IMG/VR virus record: IMGVR_UViG_2671181100_000005
Direction: 5' to 3' (one strand)
Source: a virus
Taxonomy: Duplodnaviria > Heunggongvirae > Uroviricota > Caudoviricetes
DNA length: 9,275 bases
Below the pieces are notes generated by a model. The model worked only from the letters and a program-made list of their open reading frames with translations, was not told where the DNA came from and searched no databases. A program made the position numbers and the translations under genes. The first letter of the stretch is position 1, and every line of letters starts with the position of its first letter. Shown one piece after another: positions 252 to 9,275 of the stretch.

Positions 252-794
252 TTACTTGTCTTTATCCGGCTGAAACTTATCAGGCACATTTCCGGTAGTT
301 TCCATCAGATAATCGGACAGCATTCGCGGGATGTTTTCATCAAGTTTTGTGCATGCGTTACAGGCTCTGACAACTTCTTTTTTCAGGCCATCCAGCATGG
401 CGGGGGTCATCTGTGGGAAGCTCCTTTGCATAGTAAGCGGCAGGCTGCCCATGATTGAAGAAATCTGACTCGCCAGTTTTGAAAGCGCATATATACAAAA
501 TTCCGTACTAATCACATCGCCGCGTTCGCGCTCGTTTTTAAGCTCCTGCGCCTCCGCCTGCGCTGTCAGCAATCTGATCCTGACTCGCAAAAGCTCATCA
601 TTATCAATCTCGCCTTTGTCGTCTGTAATCTGGTTAATTGCATTGCTAACCCGATTGTCTATTACGCTGGCAACATCATAAAACGCCTCGCGGCCTTTAC
701 GTTCAACGGGAGTCACTCCCCACTTGTCGAACGCTGTCGCACTTACACGGCAGCTTTGCGCCATGTTTTTTTTGTTCATCAGGTGCGATTTCAT
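252..794 (-). CDS. Terminase small subunit, lambda Nu1-like
   Basis: ORF-track protein matches my recollection of lambda Nu1 across the length, e.g. LLTAQAEAQELKNERERGDVISTEFCIYALSKLASQISSIMGSLPLTMQRSFP versus Nu1 LTRAQADAQELKNARDSAEVVETAFCTFVLSRIAGEIASILDGLPLSVQRRFP, and C-terminal LDENIPRMLSDYLMETTG versus LDELIPGLLSEYIEQSG. Start chosen at ATG 794..792 (GGGGA 6 nt upstream); ATG at 779 is an alternative. Lies directly downstream of the cos site, as in lambda. Confidence 0.85.
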   Translation of the reverse strand: MKSHLMNKKNMAQSCRVSATAFDKWGVTPVERKGREAFYDVASVIDNRVSNAINQITDDKGEIDNDELLRVRIRLLTAQAEAQELKNERERGDVISTEFCIYALSKLASQISSIMGSLPLTMQRSFPQMTPAMLDGLKKEVVRACNACTKLDENIPRMLSDYLMETTGNVPDKFQPDKDK

Positions 795-799
795 CAATA

Positions 800-990
800 T
801 CCCCACTTAAGTAATGTTTCAGGTTGGTGTATTGGCTTTATCTTTTCCTTTTTATTCATAGAGATAGAGCGAACAACAAAACCACCACCAGCACCCGAAA
901 AAGGCTCATAAATAGCGAAAACCCGCGAGGTCGCCGCCCCGTAGCCTACCGGATCGCCGGAAAGGACCCGCCAGCCAGAACGGGCCCTAA
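800..990 (-). other. Lambda-type cos site: cosN 12-nt cohesive end at 928..939 (complement), cosQ-like at about 945..985, divergent cosB-like at about 800..927
   Basis: Reverse complement of 907..940 reads GGGCGGCGACCTCGCGGGTTTTCGCTATTTATGA, identical to the first 34 nt of lambda as I remember them, then diverges. Reverse complement of 941..973 reads GGCGGGTCCTTTCCGGCGATCCGGTAGGCTACG, close to the lambda right end (GACGGGTCCTTTCCGGTGATCCGACAGGTTACG). Confidence 0.75.
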
Positions 991-995
991 TTTCA

Positions 996-1379
996 TCAAC
1001 CAATCAACTTATAGCGACCATCCCGTGCATTGCGACGTACACGCTCAATCTTGAGGCATAGCGCCGCATCTGGCTTTTTTGGGACAGGTACGCGGCAATA
1101 TTCAGAAGCTCGAGGAATATTGTTTATCCAGTCGATCACTTCACTTAAATACCAGGCCTTACGCCCTTCCGTAACCTGTACGCGTTCGGGGAACTCTCCG
1201 CGAGCCTCAAGGTTTAGCAATGTGCGACGGCTAAGGGTAGTAAGTTCCATCACCTGATTCATATCAACAAGGCGTTCACTTAAACGCATTTTGTCAGCAA
1301 TAGCCTTTAATTCCTCTACTGCTGGATCCGGATACATCATTTCGGCAATTGGCTTAAGGTCATTGTAATGATTCTGCAT
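996..1379 (-). CDS. AlpA-family HTH DNA-binding protein, second copy, with N- and C-terminal extensions
   Basis: Core MELTTLSRRTLLNLEARGEFPERVQVTEGRKAWYLSEVIDWINN resembles Phage_AlpA-type HTH proteins. ATG at 1379 is preceded by AAGGGGGA. Starts 11 nt after the D-like gene stop and ends next to cosQ. Confidence 0.7.
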   Translation of the reverse strand: MQNHYNDLKPIAEMMYPDPAVEELKAIADKMRLSERLVDMNQVMELTTLSRRTLLNLEARGEFPERVQVTEGRKAWYLSEVIDWINNIPRASEYCRVPVPKKPDAALCLKIERVRRNARDGRYKLIG

Positions 1380-1390
1380 TGTATCCCCCT

Positions 1391-1732
1391 TTACACACGA
1401 GCCAGCGGCTGAACAGAAATACCTGAGCCAACAAACGCGGCAACCTTTGCCGACAGTTCTTTTACAGACTCAGGCCAGTTCAGAGCATCAACATTTAAAA
1501 CACCTGTCTTATAAACCTGTGCCTGTGTTTTTTTCGCTGTGTCGATTTGTACAGCGGAAACATAAACCGCTTTGCCTGCGCTCGTTCCATCCCATACCAC
1601 TAGCGCACCAGTTGCATCTTCCTGCATCAGTGGCGTAAACGCAGGTATTACCCCTTTATTGGCTGAAAATATCCCCAGCGTAGTAACCAGTGCTTCAGTG
1701 CCAGACATGAGTTCAGTGTAATGAGTAGCCAT
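1391..1732 (-). CDS. Head decoration protein, lambda gpD-like
   Basis: PAFTPLMQEDATGALVVWDGTSAGKAVYVSAV and YKTGVLNVDALNWPESVKELSAKVAAFVGSGISV parallel lambda gpD [32 protein letters not shown] and [35 protein letters not shown] (from memory). 113 aa versus 110 aa for gpD. RBS GGGGGAG precedes the ATG. Confidence 0.85.
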   Translation of the reverse strand: MATHYTELMSGTEALVTTLGIFSANKGVIPAFTPLMQEDATGALVVWDGTSAGKAVYVSAVQIDTAKKTQAQVYKTGVLNVDALNWPESVKELSAKVAAFVGSGISVQPLARV

Positions 1733-1741
1733 TGCTCCCCC

Positions 1742-2788
1742 TTAGCCAATGCGAACGGTAACAAAACGATTGATGCGGGCCGGTATTGGCTGTGGTGCTG
1801 AATGTGTCTGCACATATTCAATAGCCGGATCACCAGGCACAATATAGTTTTTCGGTGCAAGTTCGGCTTTAGTCAGCCCCATCCGGATTAGCTCCGGATC
1901 CTGAATACCGCCATAAGCGACAATCCCCTGAAGAGCCGTATTGCCAAGCACCATCAAATCAGGATCAAGGAAATATTTTTCAGTTCCGTCCTCGTCGGTA
2001 TAACGCCCGCTGTAAACAACAATCGCAACATCGCCCATATACCCTTTAAAACTCACCGAATCACCAAGGTCTTTAAGGGCCGTTTCCAGTTCGGAATTAG
2101 AACCACGACGAGTATCCAGAGCCTCTTTTATCGCCCTGAATGAACGGTATTTCTTCCATACATTACCGCCCATAATGATAATATTAGTGACGCCCTCACT
2201 AAATTCTGCGTAGCTCTCAATATCATCATTTGGATCAAAAGCTTCTTTATCCTTACCTGACCACTCAGCACCGCCAGACTGAGTGATGATATTTTGTGGT
2301 TTAATATTCCAGTCCAGCTCATAACGTTCAATACCATCGCCCTCAATGATATTTTTCCCCGTTGTGATTGCCTGAACGGCAAGCCATTCAATACGTGCAC
2401 GAATAGCTTTAGCCTGATTTACAATCGCCTGTTTAACTTTAATATTACGCGCTCCAAAAGCATTGTATTGCTCAGGTGATACACCAGCAGGGCGCACAGC
2501 TAACTTATTTGGATCAATGCTGCTTTTCGGTTTCATATAGCCAGGGCGAATTGTTTTTGATTCGTATCCCTCATCTCGTGAAACTTTACTGCCCACCATA
2601 GGAGAGCAAAACGCCGCGATCGGGATATTTGGATCGTCGATCGTATCAAGAATAATGTCTCTCGATTCAAACATTACCGAGCGAGTGAAAAACAAACTGG
2701 TAAACAACGCATTTAATTTTTTTTGCACATCTTCAGCATTAGCCACCTGCACAAGCTGTGTAGGCGAATATAAGTCAACCATACTCAT
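1742..2788 (-). CDS. Major capsid protein, lambda gpE family
   Basis: Long collinear similarity to lambda gpE as I recall it: NIITQSGGAEWSGKDKEAFDPNDDIESYA, DTRRGSNSELETALKDLGDSVSFKGYMGDVAIVVYSG, MVLGNT, PGDPAIEY. Start set at the MSM motif (ATG 2788, or 2782 with AAAGAGG 6 nt upstream), like lambda E's MSM start. The longer track ORF (start 2869) is probably an upstream extension. Confidence 0.9.
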   Translation of the reverse strand: MSMVDLYSPTQLVQVANAEDVQKKLNALFTSLFFTRSVMFESRDIILDTIDDPNIPIAAFCSPMVGSKVSRDEGYESKTIRPGYMKPKSSIDPNKLAVRPAGVSPEQYNAFGARNIKVKQAIVNQAKAIRARIEWLAVQAITTGKNIIEGDGIERYELDWNIKPQNIITQSGGAEWSGKDKEAFDPNDDIESYAEFSEGVTNIIIMGGNVWKKYRSFRAIKEALDTRRGSNSELETALKDLGDSVSFKGYMGDVAIVVYSGRYTDEDGTEKYFLDPDLMVLGNTALQGIVAYGGIQDPELIRMGLTKAELAPKNYIVPGDPAIEYVQTHSAPQPIPARINRFVTVRIG

Positions 2789-2953
2789 CCTCTTTACATT
2801 CATTACAAATAATTGTGAATATATTCTATTACCGATGTCTGCTATGCGAATACATGCAACCAAGTGCAATGTTGTATAAAATATGCCGTGACAACTTCAG
2901 TGCTGATAATTCGTGTTAATGTATTTACTTCCTTTGGTCGGGATTTATGTAGC

Positions 2954-2993
2954 ATGCCGGAAAATCTATTTTTTTCCGGCATCTTTTTGTTTG
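2954..2993 (+). terminator. Perfect 11-bp inverted repeat stem-loop followed by a T-tract (candidate intrinsic terminator, plus-strand orientation)
   Basis: ATGCCGGAAAA (2954..2964), 7-nt loop, TTTTCCGGCAT (2972..2982), then CTTTTTGTTTG. Lies just downstream of the ssb stop on the opposite strand; on the minus strand the U-tract is absent, so the orientation and role are uncertain. Confidence 0.4.
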
Positions 2994-2999
2994 CAGAAT

Positions 3000-3422
3000 T
3001 TAAAACGGTATATTATCGCCGTACGGATCATCATTCCCCGACTGTTGTTTTGCCCTGTTCAGTGCGTCAGTGGCCTGCCCCTGCTGGCCTTTTTTGCCGC
3101 CCGGTCGCGCTGTTCGCGCACTGATCACGCTGTCTGCGATAACCTGCCAGCCCTGCCGCGTTTCGCCGTTCTGGCCTGTCCACTGGCTTACCTGCATGTT
3201 ACCCGCCACGCTCACCAGTTCGCCTTTGTGGTGTTTTGCCAGTGCGTCGGCCTGTCTGCCAAACGCCAGGACGGATAACCACATCATCGCCGTTCCGTCA
3301 TCTGCCTGGCTGCACGGAAGGGGGACCGCCATACTAGCCATCGCCATTTGTGTACCCTTGCTGGTGGTCTTTAACTGCGGATCAGCCACCAGCCGTCCGT
3401 AAGCCGCTATCTGTGCTGTCAT
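3000..3422 (-). CDS. ssb: Single-stranded DNA-binding protein (SSB)
   Basis: OB-fold-like N-terminal region (YGRLVADPQL..., WLSVLAFGRQADALAKHHKGELVSVAGNMQVSQWTGQNGETRQGWQVIADSV) parallels E. coli SSB. Gly/Gln-rich linker and acidic C-terminal tail ...DDPYGDNIPF match the SSB signature ...DDDIPF. Start ATG overlaps the upstream ORF stop (ATGA). Confidence 0.85.
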   Translation of the reverse strand: MTAQIAAYGRLVADPQLKTTSKGTQMAMASMAVPLPCSQADDGTAMMWLSVLAFGRQADALAKHHKGELVSVAGNMQVSQWTGQNGETRQGWQVIADSVISARTARPGGKKGQQGQATDALNRAKQQSGNDDPYGDNIPF

Positions 3423-3664: not shown

Positions 3665-3708
3665 AGGCTTTATCTCACAGCAGTAAATTAAAATTTTTGC
3701 GTTTTAAC

Positions 3709-3905
3709 CCTTCACCTGTTCACCTTTTGATATTTTATCTTTTAATTCATAATGTTAAGGGGTGAACAGTTTCACAAAAACTATTCACCAACTGTTCACC
3801 ACTGTTCACNNNNNNNNNNNNNNNNNNNNNNNNNNNNNNNNNNNNNNNNNNNNNNNNNNNNNNNNNNNNNNNNNNNNNNNNNNNNNGTGAACAGTGGTGA
3901 ACAGT
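3709..3905. repeat. Iteron array of octamer TGTTCACC / GGTGAACA (P4 ori/crr-type), candidate replication origin
   Basis: Exact octamers at 3717..3724 and 3793..3800 (TGTTCACC) and 3761..3768 and 3896..3903 (GGTGAACA). Gap-truncated copies at 3803..3809 and 3887..3893, plus degenerate copies (3709..3716, 3783..3789). Sits immediately downstream of the primase-helicase gene. Confidence 0.6.
3810..3886. other. Run of 77 N (unresolved or masked sequence) inside the iteron region
   Basis: Directly visible in the sequence. Flanked by a perfect 19-nt inverted repeat (3791..3809 ACTGTTCACCACTGTTCAC; 3887..3905 GTGAACAGTGGTGAACAGT). Confidence 0.95.
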
Positions 3906-3917
3906 TATTCCATAAGT

Positions 3918-5735
3918 TTAATTTTTGCTATCGTCATTAGTGACCGATACACATGATGGCATCCAGTCTTCTGATTCCTCCGTCAGTGTCACGTTTGAAC
4001 GCAAACCGTGCTTCGTTTTCCGTTTCATATACTCCCTGCCATATTCCGCCATTGCCCCCGGCATATCTTTACCGAAGCGCGTCAGTGTTACAGGTTTACC
4101 AAACCCATGTGCCTTCATATAAGCCAGATAGGCATGATAGAGATACCTGCGCGGGCTGAATGGCACAATTTCAGCATTACCCACTAACAGGCCATCACAC
4201 ATTACCGACGCCATGAGATAGCCGCAGAAGTCCACCAGCGAATCACCTTCACGCTTTATCGCGAGTGCTTCTTCTGATTTCTGCTGCTCATATAAAAGGC
4301 GTCTGGCTTCGTCCTGGTCAGCAAACCGTGTAAGCAGATGACGAATCACTACCGCCAGCTCACCTTCTATTTTTTCCGCCAGCATTGAATCGCGTTCGTT
4401 CTCCGGTACAACTTCCGAAAAATTGAATATCACCCGACGTCGCGAGATCCCCCCACTGCGGTCACTGAATGACATAGCGTTATTGTTAACCGCCAGCACT
4501 ACTGCCGGGATACGCGTTGAATATGGGGCTTTATGTTTTGGGTCGATTGCCACCTTGTCACCGCCTGTAATAGCCTTAATTCCCGCCCCATCACCAGCGT
4601 AGCGGGTCATATCCGGCATGATAATCAGCGAAAAGCCAACCACTAACGCGCGTTCCCTTGCATCTTCCAGCGCCTTCATGCTCGCTGATACTGTATTAGC
4701 CTTACCCGCCAGCATGGTGCAAATCTCCGCCATCACGCTTTTACCACTTCCCCCTGGACCTGTTACCTCAATGAATAACTGCCAGTCGTACCGGTTCGCC
4801 AGCACCATGAATAATGCAGCCAGTACGCGATCCGCCTTGCGGTCATTCTCAGCCACCGAACGGCGTAACCACTTCCAGAAATTCGGCGCATGTGTTGCCA
4901 GCGTTTCCCCCTCTGCTGGTGGGCTGAAAGGTAATTCACTGGCAATTAACAACCAGTCGTTTTTGTTATGCTCCCGAAAATTACCTGTTCTGGTATCAAA
5001 TACCCCGTTACTGAATCCAATCAGGTTACGGGCTGTATTCCCCATAACAGGCAAACTTAACTTCATGGTATCGACCGCCGATTTAATGGCGTTCTGCGAA
5101 TAGCTGATCTCCGCATCAATGAAAATCTGTGCCATAGCTCGCTGTAATTCTTTATCCTGTACTGGCTCCCATACAACGCCGTTGTAATGGTGAACAGTGT
5201 CAGAGTCAGCATGAATCGCCAGTTCACCGCCATAATGTGCCAGGAGAACTTCGCCGCGTTGACTTGCTCCCATCTGGTTAAGCGCCAGTGATGAAGCGTT
5301 ATCGTCTTTTACCCGCTCTTTTTTCTTTACAGGCAGTTCAACTACCTTTTTCTTTTCCGCCTGCTCTGCCCGTTCACGTTCCAGATATTCGCGCCAGTTC
5401 TCCCGTTTCTGGCTGTGCATTCCTTCAGGGTAATAATCAGCATCCCTGACACCTGCCGCTGCCAGTTTCTGCCCGATGGTATTAACAAGCCCCGGACGCA
5501 ATAACCCCGCCTGGTAGAGACGCACGCGATAGCGTCCGTCCGGTACGATTTGCAGGTTGTCCAGTTCGGCAAGTTGTTGCTCTCCAAGCCAGACAGGTGG
5601 CACGTTATCGCCAGCCAGTCGCCCGTCCTGTTCCTGCCACTGCTTCGCATGTGCCCACGCATCACTACCCGCAAAAATGATGACTTCCGTCATTTTGTCA
5701 CGCGGCTGGTGTTTTAAATTTGGCGCTTTTTTCAT
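3918..5735 (-). CDS. Replication protein: primase-like N-terminal region fused to an SF3 (D5 / P4 alpha-type) helicase
   Basis: Walker A motif VTGPGGSGKS with a downstream hydrophobic-acidic Walker B-like stretch. Size and position match a satellite pri/alpha gene, followed by its iterons. Start set at ATG 5735, which overlaps the upstream ORF stop (ATGA); the track ORF starts 15 nt further upstream at 5750. Confidence 0.88.
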   Translation of the reverse strand: MKKAPNLKHQPRDKMTEVIIFAGSDAWAHAKQWQEQDGRLAGDNVPPVWLGEQQLAELDNLQIVPDGRYRVRLYQAGLLRPGLVNTIGQKLAAAGVRDADYYPEGMHSQKRENWREYLERERAEQAEKKKVVELPVKKKERVKDDNASSLALNQMGASQRGEVLLAHYGGELAIHADSDTVHHYNGVVWEPVQDKELQRAMAQIFIDAEISYSQNAIKSAVDTMKLSLPVMGNTARNLIGFSNGVFDTRTGNFREHNKNDWLLIASELPFSPPAEGETLATHAPNFWKWLRRSVAENDRKADRVLAALFMVLANRYDWQLFIEVTGPGGSGKSVMAEICTMLAGKANTVSASMKALEDARERALVVGFSLIIMPDMTRYAGDGAGIKAITGGDKVAIDPKHKAPYSTRIPAVVLAVNNNAMSFSDRSGGISRRRVIFNFSEVVPENERDSMLAEKIEGELAVVIRHLLTRFADQDEARRLLYEQQKSEEALAIKREGDSLVDFCGYLMASVMCDGLLVGNAEIVPFSPRRYLYHAYLAYMKAHGFGKPVTLTRFGKDMPGAMAEYGREYMKRKTKHGLRSNVTLTEESEDWMPSCVSVTNDDSKN

Positions 5736-6031
5736 TTCTGCTCTCTCCACGCGGCAATCATGTTTTTCAGTTCCTGTAGTTTTTTATCCACATCCACACG
5801 TGACACATGGTTATTTCTGGAAGTCGGGATTTCCCGCCGGAATCTGCAAATAAAGATCTCCACGTTCAGCGAACTAAGAAATGAATAGCCATCACGGATA
5901 AAATACACACGGTCAAACATCAGTTCTTTTACCGTTACTCTATTACCGTTCTTATCCAGATAAATAGCGCCGGGGATAATTTGGGGGTGTGCATAACCGC
6001 TGGCAGTCAAGCCAGATAAATACGTTCTCAT
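5732..6031 (-). CDS. Hypothetical protein (99 aa), coupled to the primase gene
   Basis: Stop overlaps the primase start (ATGA). GGGGA lies about 9 nt upstream of its ATG. No recognisable motif. Confidence 0.55.
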   Translation of the reverse strand: MRTYLSGLTASGYAHPQIIPGAIYLDKNGNRVTVKELMFDRVYFIRDGYSFLSSLNVEIFICRFRREIPTSRNNHVSRVDVDKKLQELKNMIAAWREQK

Positions 6032-6037
6032 GATTAT

Positions 6038-6358
6038 TTATCCCCGATTTGAATCAGTATTCGCTTTCTTTATAGCATTTAATGCATCTGTGGCATTTTT
6101 AATGGTGCACCGTAACGAAATATCAAAATGTCCAAGCATTGCCAGTAACAAACCGATATTACCCATATCAATGCGCATGGCCTTTTCGTCATAGTCCTCA
6201 TTTTCTGACGCATGCCACATCAGGCTACCAATTGACGCAACAGCCATTGATATATTGTCAGTAGCCCCATCCGCAGCGGAATAAACCTTTTTAGCAATAT
6301 CATGCTCACAGTTAAAATGCGGATTAATCAGGTACTGGTAATTTGACATATCAGGCAT
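6038..6358 (-). CDS. Hypothetical protein (106 aa)
   Basis: ATG at 6358 overlaps the stop of the upstream 67-aa ORF (ATGCCTGA). RBS AGGGGG is present. Stop lies 6 nt before the next ORF. No recognisable motif. Confidence 0.55.
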   Translation of the reverse strand: MPDMSNYQYLINPHFNCEHDIAKKVYSAADGATDNISMAVASIGSLMWHASENEDYDEKAMRIDMGNIGLLLAMLGHFDISLRCTIKNATDALNAIKKANTDSNRG

Positions 6359-6554
6359 GGCACACCCCCTGACGAATACGGGCGGCGAATACCATCACGC
6401 AGCCAGCCGGGGATTGCTGGCGTGCTTCCTGTTCGCTGGTGGCCACGATGTGAATCACGCGCGGTTGTGCGGTGCTCAGGGCGATAAAACGCCAGATGTA
6501 TTTATTCAGGTTGTACGAGTCCCGCCCTTGCGGGTGTATGGTATGATTTCTCAT
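6351..6554 (-). CDS. Hypothetical protein (67 aa), first gene of the minus-strand operon leading into the primase
   Basis: This is the last 67 codons of the 348-aa track ORF, starting at ATG 6554 with GAGG 5 nt upstream. The upstream part of that ORF is low-complexity and antisense to a better plus-strand gene. Confidence 0.45.
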   Translation of the reverse strand: MRNHTIHPQGRDSYNLNKYIWRFIALSTAQPRVIHIVATSEQEARQQSPAGCVMVFAARIRQGVCHA

Positions 6555-6697
6555 AGCTGCCTCGATAATCTTGCTATCGTTGGTGGTTAGAAGCCCCGTT
6601 ACTGCTCCTACAGTGCGGGGTTTCGTCGTTTCTGCACCTTGCATTAACAAGGTGTAAGCAACTTTATTTATAGGTGGCTTACATGTCAATGCTTTTA

Positions 6698-6729
6698 TGT
6701 AAGACTTTTTATGTGTATATTGTCTTACA
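6698..6729. promoter_or_regulatory. 8-bp inverted repeat (TGTAAGAC ... GTCTTACA) in the divergent promoter region; candidate operator
   Basis: TGTAAGAC at 6698..6705 and GTCTTACA at 6722..6729, 16 bp apart, overlapping a TATATT -10-like hexamer (6716..6721) about 30 bp upstream of the 6751 start. Confidence 0.35.
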
Positions 6730-6750
6730 CTTTCATTGAGAGGATTACAG

Positions 6751-7056
6751 ATGGCTACAGGTTCAAAAAACGCAAAATCACAATCACTGACAGCTCGGAT
6801 CCCGCATGATGTTATTGAAGGCATGGAATCCGTAAAACTGGACGGTGAAAGCAACGCCGGATTCATAGTAACCGCCATGCGCGGTGAAATCGCCCGCCGC
6901 CAGGCAGAAGGAAGCGGAGAAAACCTCCTGGTTTCTTCGCTCGATGCCCTAGCGCAGGTGGAAAAAATCGGAGTCAAAGCCGCCGAGGAGATCGGGCAAC
7001 TCGTCACCGTCGCGCGTGAAGAACTCCAGCGACGCAAGGTCAAAGAGCAGGAATAG
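6751..7056 (+). CDS. Small DNA-binding-like protein, possible ribbon-helix-helix regulator (101 aa)
   Basis: ATG at 6751 with GAGAGGA 7 nt upstream. N-terminal SLTARIPHDVIEGMESV resembles RHH (CopG/Arc-like) beta-strand-helix starts; the C-terminus is predicted helical and charged. Divergent from the minus-strand operon. Confidence 0.5.
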   Translation: MATGSKNAKSQSLTARIPHDVIEGMESVKLDGESNAGFIVTAMRGEIARRQAEGSGENLLVSSLDALAQVEKIGVKAAEEIGQLVTVAREELQRRKVKEQE

Positions 7057-7113
7057 CCACTATCAGCGCCATAGTTTGAGGAACGCAGGCGCATTGCTTT
7101 ACAGGACAGCACC

Positions 7114-7293
7114 ATGAGCGACACAGAATCAACCAAAACACCATCACCAACTCGTAAGAGACGACGCAAAAATATAGCGCATGAACATGAATCAGAAAGA
7201 TTCGCACCTTGTTCGTTTGCTCTTGAGAAATTCCTTAAAGAGCACAGGAAAAAGCTCTCGTTGCAAACCTTGGAACGAACCAAATCTGACTGA
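7114..7293 (+). CDS. Small basic protein (59 aa), hypothetical
   Basis: Hand-translated ORF MSDTESTKTPSPTRKRRRKNIAHEHESERFAPCSFALEKFLKEHRKKLSLQTLERTKSD, below the track's 60-aa cutoff. AGGA lies 7 nt upstream. Followed by a strong terminator hairpin. Confidence 0.35.
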   Translation: MSDTESTKTPSPTRKRRRKNIAHEHESERFAPCSFALEKFLKEHRKKLSLQTLERTKSD

Positions 7294-7358
7294 TCACATT
7301 GCCCACCAGCCGCAAATGTGGCATTGTTGGTGATGCGTTCAAGTTTAGTGTGTATCCA

Positions 7359-7386
7359 TTGGCGACCGCCCCCGGTCGCCTTTGTT
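7359..7386 (+). terminator. Rho-independent terminator (plus strand), between convergent genes
   Basis: GGCGACCG (7359..7366), loop CCCC, CGGTCGCC (7371..7378), then TTTGTTTT. Confidence 0.6.
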
Positions 7387-7407
7387 TTATATGTCATATG
7401 CTCCCCT

Positions 7408-7617
7408 TTACGCTGCCTTACCTGAATTAATGCGATCCCGGCTTTTAACCCATTCCATAACCTCGGACAGCAGCCAACCTACAGAACGCCCACCAAGATT
7501 ACGGCGAGACGGAAAGCTCCCTTTTTTCTCCAGTTCGTAGCGTGTAGTGCGACACACTCCAGTTAACTTACGACATTCATCCTCACGGATTACGCGATCT
7601 TCATTTATTTCACGCAT
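7408..7617 (-). CDS. alpA: AlpA-family phage regulatory protein (transcriptional activator / excision regulator)
   Basis: RVIREDECRKLTGVCRTTRYELEKKGSFPSRRNLGGRSVGWLLSEVMEWV is a typical AlpA HTH. Start set at the internal Met (MREINED..., 70 aa, the usual AlpA size). The track ORF extends to 7704 through an AT-rich stretch that looks more like promoter than coding sequence. Confidence 0.8.
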   Translation of the reverse strand: MREINEDRVIREDECRKLTGVCRTTRYELEKKGSFPSRRNLGGRSVGWLLSEVMEWVKSRDRINSGKAA

Positions 7618-8036: not shown

Positions 8037-9275
8037 TCAAGAATTTTGGGGGTAAATTCGCGGGGTCATAACAACGATTTTTTCATCATTGTTCTGGAGA
8101 AGCTCGAGACGGTCTACCCATAGATTAAGAGCATCACGTTTTGCATCAAGGTAGCGGGAGTGGTTATAGACTCGTTGCATCCCTGGCATCTGGTGGGCTG
8201 TAAGCTGCTCGACAATATGCGGATCCACGCCTAAATCGTTCAGCATGGTTGTAAATGTGTGCCGGATATCGTGTAACGTCCAGGGGGCTTGATTAATTCG
8301 TCTGTGCGCTGTTCTTCCGTACTCTGCTACCGAAGATTGTCCTTTCAGTTCACCAAGCAATAAGCCTGTGTGTCTGTTCTGCTCCACCAGTTGCGTGACG
8401 AACGGCAAAATGCTTTCCGGTATTGGCCTGAATATGGCGACCTTCGTTTTGCTGTGCTCCTTCGGTACTGTCCAGAGCATTTCTTTAAAATCCCACTCCT
8501 GCACCTCAGAGCGCCTTAGCTCAGTGGTACGGCATCCAAAAACAATCAGGAGGCGAATTAGGGCGCTGTAGTATGGCGGGAATATTTTGTCATCCAGGGC
8601 GCGGAGTAATTCCCCAAGCTCCTTATTTGTTAGTACGCGCTCGCTCACTTCTGCTTTTTTTCCCACATCACCGACAACCATATCATCAAGAACGTTGCTG
8701 ATTGCGTATCGTCGTTTTCGGCAGTACTTAAGCGCCTGTTTGCATACCTGTAGCAAAAATCCGGCAGATACTGGGCTTCGCTTTGCCATCTGGTCAAAAC
8801 ATGCCAACCAGTGCCGTAGCTCGCATTTTTCCAACGGCAAAGCGCCAATCTGGCTGATTATGTGTTTATTGATCCGGCTTTTCAGTGATTCGTAGTCAGT
8901 GCGCTTTTCCTTTGCATACGATTCAAGCCAGTAAGTGAGCGCTTCCTTAACTGTCACGGGGGCTAACGCATCCTGTACAGCACGATTAAGCTCATAGCGC
9001 GGATTTTTCCCCTCAGCCAGCCAGGCGCGACACTGTGCTGCTTTTTCCCTGGCTGCTTTCAGACTCAGATCGGGATAATTGCCCAGTCTCAGACGTTCCG
9101 GTGATACCTGCCTACCAGTTCCGGCCCTGTAAGTGAAATACCAGGTTAACAGGCCGCTGGTGGAATGTCTTACGCTAAGATTGCCACCGTCATTAAAAAA
9201 GGCGTTTTTTGTGGTTGGTGATCCGCTTAATTTTCGTAAAAGAGTGTCGCTAAGTCTATGAATTGCGCTGCTCAT
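8037..9275 (-). CDS. int: Tyrosine recombinase / integrase, P4-type
   Basis: N-terminal arm-type region (NDGGNLSVRHSTSGLLTWYFTYRAGTGRQ... YPDLSLKAAREKA) is typical of P4-family integrases. C-terminal catalytic motifs HDIRHTFTTMLNDLG and RVYNHSRY are present. The ATG sits exactly at the window edge (9275). Confidence 0.92.
   Translation of the reverse strand: MSSAIHRLSDTLLRKLSGSPTTKNAFFNDGGNLSVRHSTSGLLTWYFTYRAGTGRQVSPERLRLGNYPDLSLKAAREKAAQCRAWLAEGKNPRYELNRAVQDALAPVTVKEALTYWLESYAKEKRTDYESLKSRINKHIISQIGALPLEKCELRHWLACFDQMAKRSPVSAGFLLQVCKQALKYCRKRRYAISNVLDDMVVGDVGKKAEVSERVLTNKELGELLRALDDKIFPPYYSALIRLLIVFGCRTTELRRSEVQEWDFKEMLWTVPKEHSKTKVAIFRPIPESILPFVTQLVEQNRHTGLLLGELKGQSSVAEYGRTAHRRINQAPWTLHDIRHTFTTMLNDLGVDPHIVEQLTAHQMPGMQRVYNHSRYLDAKRDALNLWVDRLELLQNNDEKIVVMTPRIYPQNS

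What the first reader, a model, noticed from the sequence alone, without database searches (positions are those of the whole stretch)
996..1379. Second AlpA-family HTH protein placed between the capsid genes and cos
A separate AlpA near int (7408..7617) is the expected excision/activation regulator. This second copy is longer (127 aa, with N- and C-terminal extensions), sits at the end of the E-D gene pair and abuts cosQ. From that position it could be a late-gene activator or a cos-binding packaging accessory. Its role cannot be read from the sequence.
Basis: inference. Interest (0 to 1): 0.55.

Follow-up and report, generated by a model that had tools for sequence, protein, structure and literature searches.

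The report
Late-operon AlpA-like regulator of a phage satellite
A real, conserved 127-residue DNA-binding protein sits as the last gene of the capsid-gene operon of an E. coli phage satellite, just before the packaging (cos) site. It is most likely that operon's own transcription factor, not an excision or packaging protein, though nothing here shows it binding DNA.

Summary
Window 996-1379 (-) encodes a 127-aa protein with an AlpA-type winged helix (residues 36-89) and conserved N- and C-terminal extensions. It follows the gpE-like and gpD-like genes and stops 27 nt before a lambda-type cosQ/cosN. The window is a cos-type E. coli PICI between clpS and cspD.

The protein defines a narrow enterobacterial subfamily under purifying selection. 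It is always found as E-D-HTH-cosQ-cosN, in ordinary and helper-embedded PICIs. Its divergence follows E and D, not the integrase or the canonical AlpA. It occurs with or without an island TerS. A role as the island's excisionase, or as a TerS/cosB partner, is therefore unlikely.

The new lead is upstream of E. A hairpin is followed by 3-4 direct repeats TTRYAY at an exact 10-bp period (2879-2854). The last repeat starts 31 bp before an extended -10, and there is no conserved -35. This array was found in all 57 intact islands with the protein and in none of 80 EcCICFT073-type islands without it.

Best reading (about 0.45): the protein binds this array head-to-tail and activates its own E-D-HTH operon, functionally like P4 delta. 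Binding is inferred, not shown. Novelty: a new variant of a known kind. Interest: moderate.

The parts
996..1379 (-). HTH127: 127-aa AlpA-subfamily protein. It has N-terminal helices 8-15 and 19-33, a wHTH core at 36-89, a Pro-rich linker, and a basic C-terminal helix at 105-120.
1391..1732 (-). gpD-like head decoration gene, second gene of the operon
   Evidence: Pfam HDPD 2.3e-15, phrog_49. Always directly upstream of HTH127.
1742..2782 (-). gpE-like major capsid gene, first gene of the operon (346 aa from the ATG at 2782)
   Evidence: Pfam Phage_cap_E 6.3e-41. RefSeq start.
2854..2879 (-). Array of direct repeats at a 10-bp period: TTATAC-N4-TTGCAC-N4-TTGCAT, plus a degenerate TTCGCA at 2850-2845. 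Candidate binding site of HTH127.
   Evidence: Unique in the window with 0 expected in shuffles. Information content 1.65 bits in hexamer columns, 0.72 in spacers, about 0.5 in flanks across 14 diverse islands.
2823..2831 (-). -10 element TAGAAT. Most relatives have an extended -10, TGnTAGCAT. It starts exactly 31 bp after the start of the last TTGCAY unit.
   Evidence: Spacing is 31 bp in 15 of 16 variants and 30 in one.
2954..2982 (-). Hairpin (11-bp arms) that closes the upstream replication operon (pri-p81-ssb). Relatives have clean intrinsic terminators at this place.
   Evidence: Fold z -4.7. Relatives z -4.1 and -2.65 with U-tracts.
922..995 (-). Spacer, cosQ (969-959) and cosN (cohesive-end sequence 939-928). 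A GC hairpin at 987-960 overlaps cosQ.
807..921 (-). Island-type cosB (GGTGGTGGT / TTGTTGTT motifs, not lambda R sites)
   Evidence: Alignment A2.
252..794 (-). Nu1-family small terminase of the island. Its N-terminal DNA-binding part has diverged.
   Evidence: Pfam Phage_Nu1 1.2e-21, matching only profile positions 78-161. phrog_57 1.9e-50.
7408..7617 (-). Canonical PICI AlpA next to int (given for contrast)
   Evidence: Pfam 4.8e-16. 59% identical to EcCICFT073 AlpA.

Best explanation
HTH127 is the dedicated transcription factor of the satellite's late (capsid) operon.

Shown: the window is a cos-packaged PICI. Its genes E, D and HTH127 form a compact unit, bracketed by a hairpin or terminator upstream and by cos (in relatives, a terminator and then cos) downstream. 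The unit is preceded by a promoter with an (extended) -10 and no conserved -35. Three to four TTRYAY hexamers sit at an exact 10-bp period, and the last one starts 31 bp before the -10.

Inferred: HTH127 monomers bind these hexamers head-to-tail through the AlpA/Xis-type winged helix. The extra N-terminal helices and the basic C-terminal helix would provide oligomerisation and/or RNA polymerase contact. The bound filament, ending near -38, would recruit RNA polymerase as in class-II activation.

Because the gene lies inside the operon it would activate, the circuit is a positive-feedback late switch. It would be primed by read-through from the AlpA-driven early/replication operon. In helper-embedded relatives it would be primed by helper late transcription.

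In function, though not in ancestry, this resembles P4 delta inside the sid-delta-psu operon.
For: 1. AlpA-family wHTH by sequence and predicted fold. The closest structural relatives include proteins that bind arrays of direct repeats as head-to-tail oligomers and regulate transcription: BldC (PMC5859096), RdfS, whose extra N-terminal helix drives oligomerisation (PMC11963761), and D29 Gp36 (PMC12266134). PrtN-like activators appear among the viral fold hits.

2. The repeat array looks like a phylogenetic footprint. Hexamers are conserved while spacers and flanks vary, down to relatives with 51% protein identity.

3. The distance to the -10 is rigid and in helical phase, whether there are 3 or 4 units. 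The -10 is weak and there is no conserved -35. EcCICFT073-type islands, by contrast, have a near-consensus TATAAT.

4. Co-occurrence. The array with E-D-HTH127 is found in 57 of 57 intact IMG/VR hits. In EcCICFT073-type islands there is no array and no HTH127, 0 of 80 each.

5. The array does not follow the integration-zone regulator. It is kept with four different regulators: window-type AlpA, IAI39-type AlpA (44-50% identical), a non-AlpA Xis-like protein in Buttiauxella, and an HTH_17 protein in L190. It is absent from CFT073, whose AlpA is 59% identical to the window's.

6. The array is unique in the island. No copy lies near cos, upstream of alpA, or in the adjacent prophage DNA sampled.
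Against: - No binding data exist.
- The array, E, D and HTH127 are inherited as one module, so their co-occurrence is not independent evidence.
- EcCICFT073-type late promoters carry the same heptamer ATTGCAY as an inverted repeat, although they lack HTH127. This could point to a shared, unidentified binder.
- Host response regulators of the OmpR/PhoB type also bind 10-bp direct repeats. Lambda CII binds TTGC-N6-TTGC (my own knowledge).
- An activator encoded in its own target operon needs a separate trigger.
- The strong ribosome-binding site behind two capsid genes suggests abundant protein, which is unusual for a pure regulator.
- The sign of regulation (activation or autorepression) is inferred only from promoter geometry.
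Confidence: 0.45

Rival explanations
1. Packaging accessory at cos. HTH127 would bind island DNA near cosQ/cosN, or bind terminase or the island-made capsid protein, and favour packaging of the satellite. This would be a functional analogue of gpFI, Rpp or SaPI Ppi.
For: - The gene always abuts cosQ-cosN.
- It occupies the place after the capsid genes where lambda has FI.
- The strong SD suggests an abundant protein.
- Its shape, a domain followed by a Pro-rich linker and a C-terminal helix, would suit an adaptor.
Against: - The spacer between the stop codon and cosQ varies in length and sequence and often holds a terminator.
- No repeat array lies in or near cos.
- The same protein (95% identical) serves islands with island-type cosB plus terS and islands with lambda-type cosB without terS.
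- TerS and Rpp assort independently of it.
- It has no profile similarity to RppA, the island TerS or FI. The fold similarity is generic to MerR-like wHTH proteins.
Confidence: 0.12
2. Helper-directed regulator. HTH127 would act in trans on helper-phage DNA. It would either switch on helper late genes, as P4 delta does, or repress helper genes as an interference function.
For: Satellites commonly encode such factors: P4 delta and epsilon, and SaPI Pti proteins (my own knowledge). The gene is expressed together with capsid-related genes, and its DNA-binding fold is established.
Against: No array of 3 or more TTRYAY units was found in the lambdoid prophage of CFT073 (49-kb locus), or in the prophage DNA flanking the helper-embedded relatives L008, L011 and L012. 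Matches to the pattern outside E-D-HTH islands fell in unrelated contigs; the one examined lay inside a coding region. The relatives sit in helpers with different tail modules, lambda-like and P2-like, so a common helper target is not obvious.
Confidence: 0.13
3. Second recombination directionality factor or excisionase, or an architectural protein for the island's attachment sites.
For: Pfam Phage_AlpA and phrog_2790 are annotated as 'excisionase and transcriptional regulator'. The best structural match is a solved excisionase (8c3t).
Against: - HTH127 divergence follows E and D, not Int. IAI39 has Int 41% and HTH 95% identity to the window. Buttiauxella has Int 21% and HTH 57%. The relatives use at least three integrase/att systems.
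- EcCICFT073, which lacks the gene, excises and transfers with its canonical AlpA (PMC6092414).
Confidence: 0.05
4. The repeat array is bound by another factor, such as a host OmpR/PhoB-type regulator, helper CII or another island protein. HTH127 would then have an unrelated, still unknown role.
For: The core TTGC-N6-TTGC equals the lambda CII recognition repeat (my own knowledge). ATTGCAY also occurs, inverted, in EcCICFT073-type late promoters that lack HTH127.
Against: Scandinavium, Buttiauxella and L190 arrays use TTATAC units or alternate them with TTGCAY, so TTGC-N6-TTGC is not kept. As I recall pRE, the distance to the -10 there (17 and 27 bp) differs from the 31 and 41 bp seen here. 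The array travels with a mobile module across many genera.
Confidence: 0.2

Closest known systems
Canonical PICI AlpA (EcCICFT073 AlpA; Fillol-Salom et al. 2018, PMC6092414)
   Same: Same Pfam family (Phage_AlpA) and same wHTH. Both are satellite-encoded, and AlpA is a transcription activator that stimulates its own promoter.
   Different: Only 32% identity, confined to the wHTH. HTH127 is twice as long, with conserved N- and C-terminal extensions. It lies in the late operon next to cos rather than next to int. It is absent from the EcCICFT073 lineage (0 of 80). Its divergence is uncoupled from Int and AlpA.
alpA_1 of EcCIMP1 (second AlpA of an E. coli PICI; PMC11773190)
   Same: A second AlpA-family gene at the far end of a PICI. 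The authors found it dispensable for excision and transfer and left its function open.
   Different: It is a 52-aa protein on the opposite strand, in an island without E or D genes. It shares 36% identity over 42 residues of the wHTH only. It is not the same subfamily.
P4 delta in the sid-delta-psu late operon
   Same: A satellite late operon that combines capsid-related genes with a transcription activator acting on that operon's own promoter. This is the proposed working analogy.
   Different: Delta is a zinc-finger Ogr/Delta protein, and HTH127 has no such motif (2 Cys). Delta also transactivates helper late promoters, for which no evidence exists here. The analogy rests on my own knowledge of P4.
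BldC / Xis / RdfS-type small wHTH proteins
   Different: No sequence relationship beyond the fold. These proteins have no C-terminal basic helix and no association with capsid genes.
Rpp (RppA/RppC) of cos PICIs (PMC6739421)
   Same: A PICI-encoded MerR-like wHTH protein of similar size encoded next to cos.
   Different: Rpp lies after cosB in the TerS position and has its wHTH at the N-terminus. hhalign probability to RppA is 0.2%. HTH127 occurs in islands with their own TerS and in islands with none.
GIsul2 excisionase (PDB 8c3t)
   Different: It is a 57-73-aa single-domain excisionase of an integrative element and covers only residues 35-95 of HTH127.

Membership tests
Pfam Phage_AlpA (PF05930) / AlpA-family wHTH | Sequence match above the curated gathering score | tested here: met
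   34.9 bits against a cut-off of 21, residues 36-85 covering profile positions 2-51 of 51.
Pfam Phage_AlpA (PF05930) / AlpA-family wHTH | Winged-helix fold of the Xis/MerR-like type | tested here: met
Pfam Phage_AlpA (PF05930) / AlpA-family wHTH | Small single-domain protein (about 50-90 aa) | tested here: not met
   127 aa. Of 943 relatives among 1.84 billion cluster representatives, only about 3-4 clusters share the extensions.
PICI master regulator AlpA | Encoded directly downstream of int, at the head of the rightward operon | tested here: not met
   That position is held by 7408-7617. HTH127 is about 6 kb away, at the end of the late operon.
PICI master regulator AlpA | Present in essentially all E. 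coli PICIs of the type | tested here: not met
   Absent from 80 of 80 EcCICFT073-type islands.
PICI master regulator AlpA | Required for induction, excision and transfer, and helper-induced | not testable with these tools
   Needs genetics.
Recombination directionality factor of the island | Co-evolves with the cognate integrase and att sites and is encoded beside them | tested here: not met
   Int is 21-41% identical where HTH127 is 57-95% identical. [quoted passage not shown]
Rpp (redirecting phage packaging) | Sequence or profile similarity to RppA/B/C | tested here: not met
Rpp (redirecting phage packaging) | Gene located after cosB in the TerS position | tested here: not met
   The gene is upstream of cosQ. 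The TerS position is occupied by a Nu1-like gene.
Rpp (redirecting phage packaging) | Binds helper TerS and redirects cosB recognition | not testable with these tools
   Needs two-hybrid or biochemical assays.
Ogr/Delta late activators | Cys4 zinc-finger protein of the Ogr/Delta family | tested here: not met
   The sequence has two cysteines and no Ogr/Delta Pfam hit.
BldC-like head-to-tail direct-repeat binders | Xis/MerR-like wHTH without the MerR coiled coil | tested here: met
BldC-like head-to-tail direct-repeat binders | Cognate promoter carries 2-4 phased direct repeats | tested here: inconclusive
   An array exists in front of its own operon. Which protein binds it was not determined.
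Pyocin activator PrtN | Match to the PrtN family profile | tested here: not met
   The Pfam scan at E <= 0.1 listed only Phage_AlpA and HTH_17, so no other family matched. PrtN-annotated viral models match only at fold level.
Lambda gpFI | Sequence or profile similarity to FI | tested here: not met
   hhalign probability 0.09% against the FI of the IAI39 prophage.

The most novel reading that the evidence does not exclude
HTH127 could be a two-function satellite protein that acts like P4 delta or lambda gpFI. Besides switching on the satellite's own E-D operon, it would act outside it. It might transactivate or repress helper late genes. Alternatively, it might use the Pro-rich linker and C-terminal helix to tether satellite DNA, or terminase bound at the adjacent cos, to capsids containing the satellite's own E and D proteins. 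That would give the so far phenotype-less capsid genes of Gram-negative cos PICIs a role.
Probability: 0.12. Interest if true: 0.7.

Novelty: new variant of a known kind. Interest (0 to 1): 0.45.

Why it matters
Gram-negative PICIs are thought to be run by a single activator, AlpA. How their late genes (capsid-like genes, terS) are timed is unknown. The E- and D-like genes of EcCICFT073 have no known phenotype (PMC6092414).

A second-tier regulator with a defined operator would turn a one-step model into an early-to-late cascade like those of phages and P4. It would give a concrete handle for asking when, and for what purpose, the satellite's capsid genes are expressed: a 26-bp array and a 127-aa protein. 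It would also supply a compact, portable activator-promoter pair for engineered PICI 'drones'.

The subfamily is common (about 7.5% of complete E. coli genomes) but is currently annotated only as a generic HTH regulator. One comparative study grouped all AlpA-family genes with the integration functions (PMC10111431).

Tried and rejected
1. Pseudomonas aeruginosa AlpA antiterminator. It shares the name only. It is a Q-like eight-helix protein with a C-terminal HTH and a ring in the RNA exit channel (PMC9371919).

2. Homology with the gene in the same slot of EcCICFT073 (c1501). BLASTP finds no similarity. c1501 instead resembles the C-terminus of the head protease/scaffold, so the slot is not a 'regulator slot'.

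3. Relationship to RppA, the island TerS or gpFI. None was found by profile comparison.

4. The array as replication iterons. The ori lies downstream of pri and has different iterons, CTGTTCACC.

5. The array as a sigma-54 promoter. The register is 10 bp rather than 11, and there is no GG at -24 (from the sequence and my own knowledge).

6. The array as the canonical AlpA site. No such array lies upstream of alpA, and the array persists with unrelated integration-zone regulators.

7. Co-variation between recognition-helix residues and hexamer type (TTGCAC versus TTATAC). This looked promising in Scandinavium, Buttiauxella and Cedecea. L190 mixes both hexamer types, so it is not usable as evidence.

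8. A phage homologue. tblastn against 50,697 phage records found nothing.

9. Rfam. No RNA family is present in the window.

10. The first AF2 run, with 17 sequences, was too poor to use (pLDDT 49.6). A 94-sequence alignment fixed it. The afdb50 fold library was unavailable.

11. Looking for more divergent relatives with P0093 in IMG/VR found nothing.

Full report
**What the window is.** The 9275-bp window is 100% identical to a chromosomal island of E. coli CFS3313 that lies between clpS and cspD. Nearly all its genes are on the minus strand:
- int (8037-9275)
- the canonical alpA (7408-7617)
- an Icd-like gene, a DUF4222 gene and a D5-type primase (3918-5750)
- an 81-aa gene and ssb (3000-3422)
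- a gpE-like major capsid gene (1742-2782) and a gpD-like decoration gene (1391-1732)
- the 127-aa gene of the finding (996-1379)
- a lambda-type cos site
- a Nu1-family small terminase gene (252-794)

This is the layout of Gram-negative cos PICIs such as EcCICFT073 (PMC6092414, PMC6739421). EcCICFT073 shares the order E, D, X, cos, Y, small ORF.

**Checking the observation.**
- The ORF has an AlpA domain above Pfam's cut-off (34.9 bits against 21, residues 36-85). It matches phrog_2790 strongly (1.8e-48, residues 11-109) and the solved AlpA-family excisionase 8c3t (1.6e-10).
- It shares only 32% identity with the island's canonical AlpA, and only within the winged helix.
- Its stop codon (998-996) is followed by cosQ (GGGTCCTTTCC, 969-959) and by the lambda cohesive-end sequence (GGGCGGCGACCT, 939-928).
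- The gene occurs in 408 of 5426 complete E. coli genomes, at several chromosomal sites.
- Homologues, almost all exactly 127 aa, occur in Enterobacter, Citrobacter, Klebsiella, Pluralibacter, Salmonella, Trabulsiella, Kosakonia, Kluyvera, Superficieibacter, Cedecea, Scandinavium and Buttiauxella.
- dN/dS is far below 1 in the core (0.01-0.12) and also in both extensions (0.12-0.29 where dS is not saturated).

**How narrow the family is.** An exhaustive HMMER search of 1.84 billion cluster representatives found 943 AlpA-like relatives. Only 15 had E <= 1e-10. Only about three or four clusters matched beyond the wHTH core (P0001, P0130, P0131 and a fusion artefact, P0134). In these distant relatives the C-terminal motif L-x-L-K-x-E-R and the terminal L-x-G are kept. 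No phage record encodes the protein. It is therefore a specialised offshoot of the AlpA family, restricted to enterobacterial satellites.

**Structure.**
- With a 94-sequence alignment, AlphaFold2 gives a mean pLDDT of 77.9 and about 90 in the core.
- The model has helices at 8-15 and 19-33. The core is a short strand, helices 40-47 and 51-60, a two-stranded wing at 67-77 and a helix at 78-86. A Pro-rich linker of low confidence follows, then a basic amphipathic helix at 105-120 (pLDDT about 85).
- Viral models annotated AlpA, excisionase and PrtN also match.
- The extensions have no informative structural match.

**Context across relatives.** The order E, D, HTH, cosQ, cosN holds in every intact relative examined, in two settings:
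- Ordinary islands: the window, L009, L010 and L190.
- Helper-embedded PICIs inserted in a prophage capsid gene: IAI39, Cedecea, Kosakonia, Scandinavium and Buttiauxella.

What lies after cosN varies. Some relatives have an island-type cosB with a Nu1-like terS. Others have a lambda-type cosB with no terS and a TIR-domain gene instead (IAI39, Cedecea), or unrelated DNA (Kluyvera). In 80 EcCICFT073-type islands, the terS type found in this window and Rpp alternate behind cos, while slot X holds c1501 in 71 of them. HTH127 is never present. HTH127 is therefore not tied to a particular TerS, Rpp or cosB.

**It is not the island's excisionase.** Identity to the window proteins, island by island, shows that HTH127 travels with E and D and not with the integration module. 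IAI39 has Int 41%, AlpA 50%, E 98%, D 96% and HTH 95%. Buttiauxella has Int 21%, no AlpA, E 76%, D 67% and HTH 57%. A directionality factor should follow its integrase. EcCICFT073, which lacks the gene, excises and transfers with its canonical AlpA (PMC6092414).

**The new lead: a regulatory array in front of E.**
- *Layout in the window.* Between ssb and E there is first a hairpin (2982-2954, fold z -4.7). Relatives have clean intrinsic terminators at this place. Next comes a set of direct repeats at an exact 10-bp period, TTATAC-N4-TTGCAC-N4-TTGCAT (2879-2854), followed by a degenerate TTCGCA. The -10 element TAGAAT lies at 2828-2823.
- *Conservation.* Across 14 diverse islands the hexamer columns carry 1.65 bits, against 0.72 in the 4-bp spacers and about 0.5 in both flanks.
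- *Spacing.* The number of units is 3 or 4. The distance from the start of the last unit to the start of the -10 is 31 bp in 15 of 16 variants and 30 in one. Most variants have an extended -10 (TGnTAGCAT-like) and none has a conserved -35.
- *Distant relatives.* The array persists in relatives with only 51-58% protein identity. Those relatives use or mix TTATAC and TTGCAY units.
- *Uniqueness.* The array is unique in the window, with none in 50 shuffles. It is absent from the 49-kb CFT073 locus that includes a lambdoid prophage, and from the prophage DNA next to the helper-embedded relatives.
- *Exact-pattern scan of IMG/VR.* The scan returned 80 loci. All 57 with enough intact downstream sequence carried E-D-HTH127 at fixed offsets (E starts about 98-112 nt after the array). 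The exceptions were one island with an IS in D, one recombinant, and chance matches in unrelated contigs.
- *The contrast lineage.* None of 80 EcCICFT073-type islands has even two units in register upstream of E. Their late promoter has a near-consensus TATAAT instead.

**Interpretation.** Phased direct repeats ending near -38, a rigid distance to a weak or extended -10, and no -35 together describe an activator-dependent promoter.

Small Xis/MerR-like winged helices are known to bind such arrays head-to-tail and to regulate transcription. BldC does so with 2-4 repeats (PMC5859096). D29 Gp36 is another case (PMC12266134). RdfS has an added N-terminal helix that drives oligomerisation (PMC11963761).

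HTH127 is the only recognisable sequence-specific DNA-binding protein that is inherited with the array. The integration-zone regulator changes among four unrelated types while the array stays. CFT073, whose AlpA is 59% identical to the window's, has no array.

I therefore propose that HTH127 binds the array and activates its own E-D-HTH operon. This would be a positive-feedback late switch, primed by read-through from the AlpA-driven operon or, in helper-embedded islands, by helper late transcription. In function this parallels P4 delta in the sid-delta-psu operon (my own knowledge). There is no homology between the two.

**Caveats.**
- Binding is inferred, not shown.
- The array and the gene belong to one inherited module, so their co-occurrence is weak evidence.
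- EcCICFT073-type late promoters contain the same heptamer ATTGCAY as an inverted repeat over the -35 and spacer. This may be coincidence, or it may point to a shared unknown binder.
- TTGC-N6-TTGC is also the lambda CII recognition repeat (my own knowledge). The divergent arrays do not keep it, and the spacing to the -10 differs from my recollection of pRE.
- Host OmpR/PhoB-type regulators cannot be excluded.
- The strong ribosome-binding site suggests abundant protein.

I put the regulator model at about 0.45, a different binder with an unknown role for HTH127 at about 0.2, a helper-directed role at about 0.13, a packaging role at about 0.12, and a directionality-factor role at about 0.05.

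**The position next to cos.** The E-D-HTH operon is simply the last transcription unit of the right arm of the packaged genome. In Cedecea, L190 and also EcCICFT073, a clean terminator separates the last gene from cosQ. The spacer between the stop codon and cosQ varies in length and sequence. Adjacency alone is therefore not evidence for cos binding.

**Comparison with the literature.** I found no paper in the searchable library that treats this late-zone AlpA paralogue. The helper-embedded PICI study grouped all Phage_AlpA and HTH_17 genes under 'Integration' (PMC10111431). EcCIMP1 has a second AlpA (alpA_1) of unknown function, but it is a 52-aa protein on the opposite strand and only distantly related (PMC11773190). 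The Pseudomonas 'AlpA' antiterminator is an unrelated Q-like protein (PMC9371919).

**Verdict.** The feature is real and conserved, and it belongs to the AlpA family by sequence and predicted fold. It differs from the canonical AlpA in architecture, genomic position and evolutionary linkage. It is most plausibly a second-tier regulator of the satellite's capsid operon, and it now has a specific, testable operator. I rate it a new variant of a known kind, of moderate interest (0.45).

Noticed in passing
window 2823-2982 (- strand): A hairpin is followed by 3-4 TTRYAY direct repeats at a 10-bp period. The last repeat starts 31 bp before the -10, and there is no conserved -35. This is a conserved, apparently undescribed regulatory region in front of the PICI capsid operon.
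   Followed up: yes
window about 3665-3917 (N-run about 3800-3880); L001 12664-12952: The window contains a masked run of N. In the identical RefSeq locus this stretch is the island's replication origin, with about 10 copies of the iteron CTGTTCACC/GGTGAACAG around an AT-rich core, just downstream of the primase gene.
   Followed up: partly
window 252-921 (- strand); L008 9385-9640; L004 6385-6640: The island TerS matches the Nu1 profile only over its C-terminal two thirds, so its DNA-binding end has diverged. The island's cosB has GGTGGTGGT/TTGTTGTT motifs. Relatives without terS carry a lambda-like cosB with R-site-like sequences. The satellites thus use two alternative packaging-specificity solutions on the same cosQ-cosN.
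   Followed up: partly
L002 340-410 (EcCICFT073) and L192-L271: The late promoter of EcCICFT073-type islands has a near-consensus TATAAT. Over its -35 and spacer lies an inverted repeat, ATTGCAY-AAA-ATGCAAT. This is the same heptamer as the direct repeats of the window's array, in a different geometry. Unexplained.
   Followed up: partly
L002 2084-2497 (c1501 of EcCICFT073): The gene in the same slot in EcCICFT073 is unrelated to HTH127. It matches the C-terminal part of head-maturation protease/scaffold proteins (phrog_53, 1e-8), so it may be a Nu3-like scaffold remnant.
   Followed up: no
L008 9983-11125; L006 6681-7829: Helper-embedded relatives (E. coli IAI39, Cedecea) carry a TIR-domain gene on the opposite strand immediately after cos. 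This is a likely anti-phage defence cargo, sitting where other islands have terS.
   Followed up: no
L008, L006, L003, L011, L012: Many relatives are helper-embedded PICIs inserted in the prophage major capsid gene E. The satellite's own intact E gene lies only a few kb from the truncated prophage E. L048 looks like a recombinant between the two E copies that deleted D, HTH127 and cos.
   Followed up: partly
window 6351-7397 (- strand): The longest mechanical ORF in this zone (348 aa) is not annotated in RefSeq. It overlaps the YlcI/YnfO-family gene on the + strand and the Icd-like gene, so it is probably spurious.
   Followed up: no
L001 8704-8988 (just outside the window start); L002 3374-3655: A conserved 93-94-aa protein of unknown function (phrog_1561) follows terS or rpp in both island lineages. 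It is the last gene before attR.
   Followed up: no
L010 8963-9307 and 9300-9509: A common E. coli variant of the protein (114 aa; cluster P0063, seen on 275 contigs) starts later and has a divergent N-terminus, so the first helix is dispensable or replaceable. RefSeq also calls a 69-aa 'hypothetical protein' across the cos site of that island, which is probably an over-call.
   Followed up: partly
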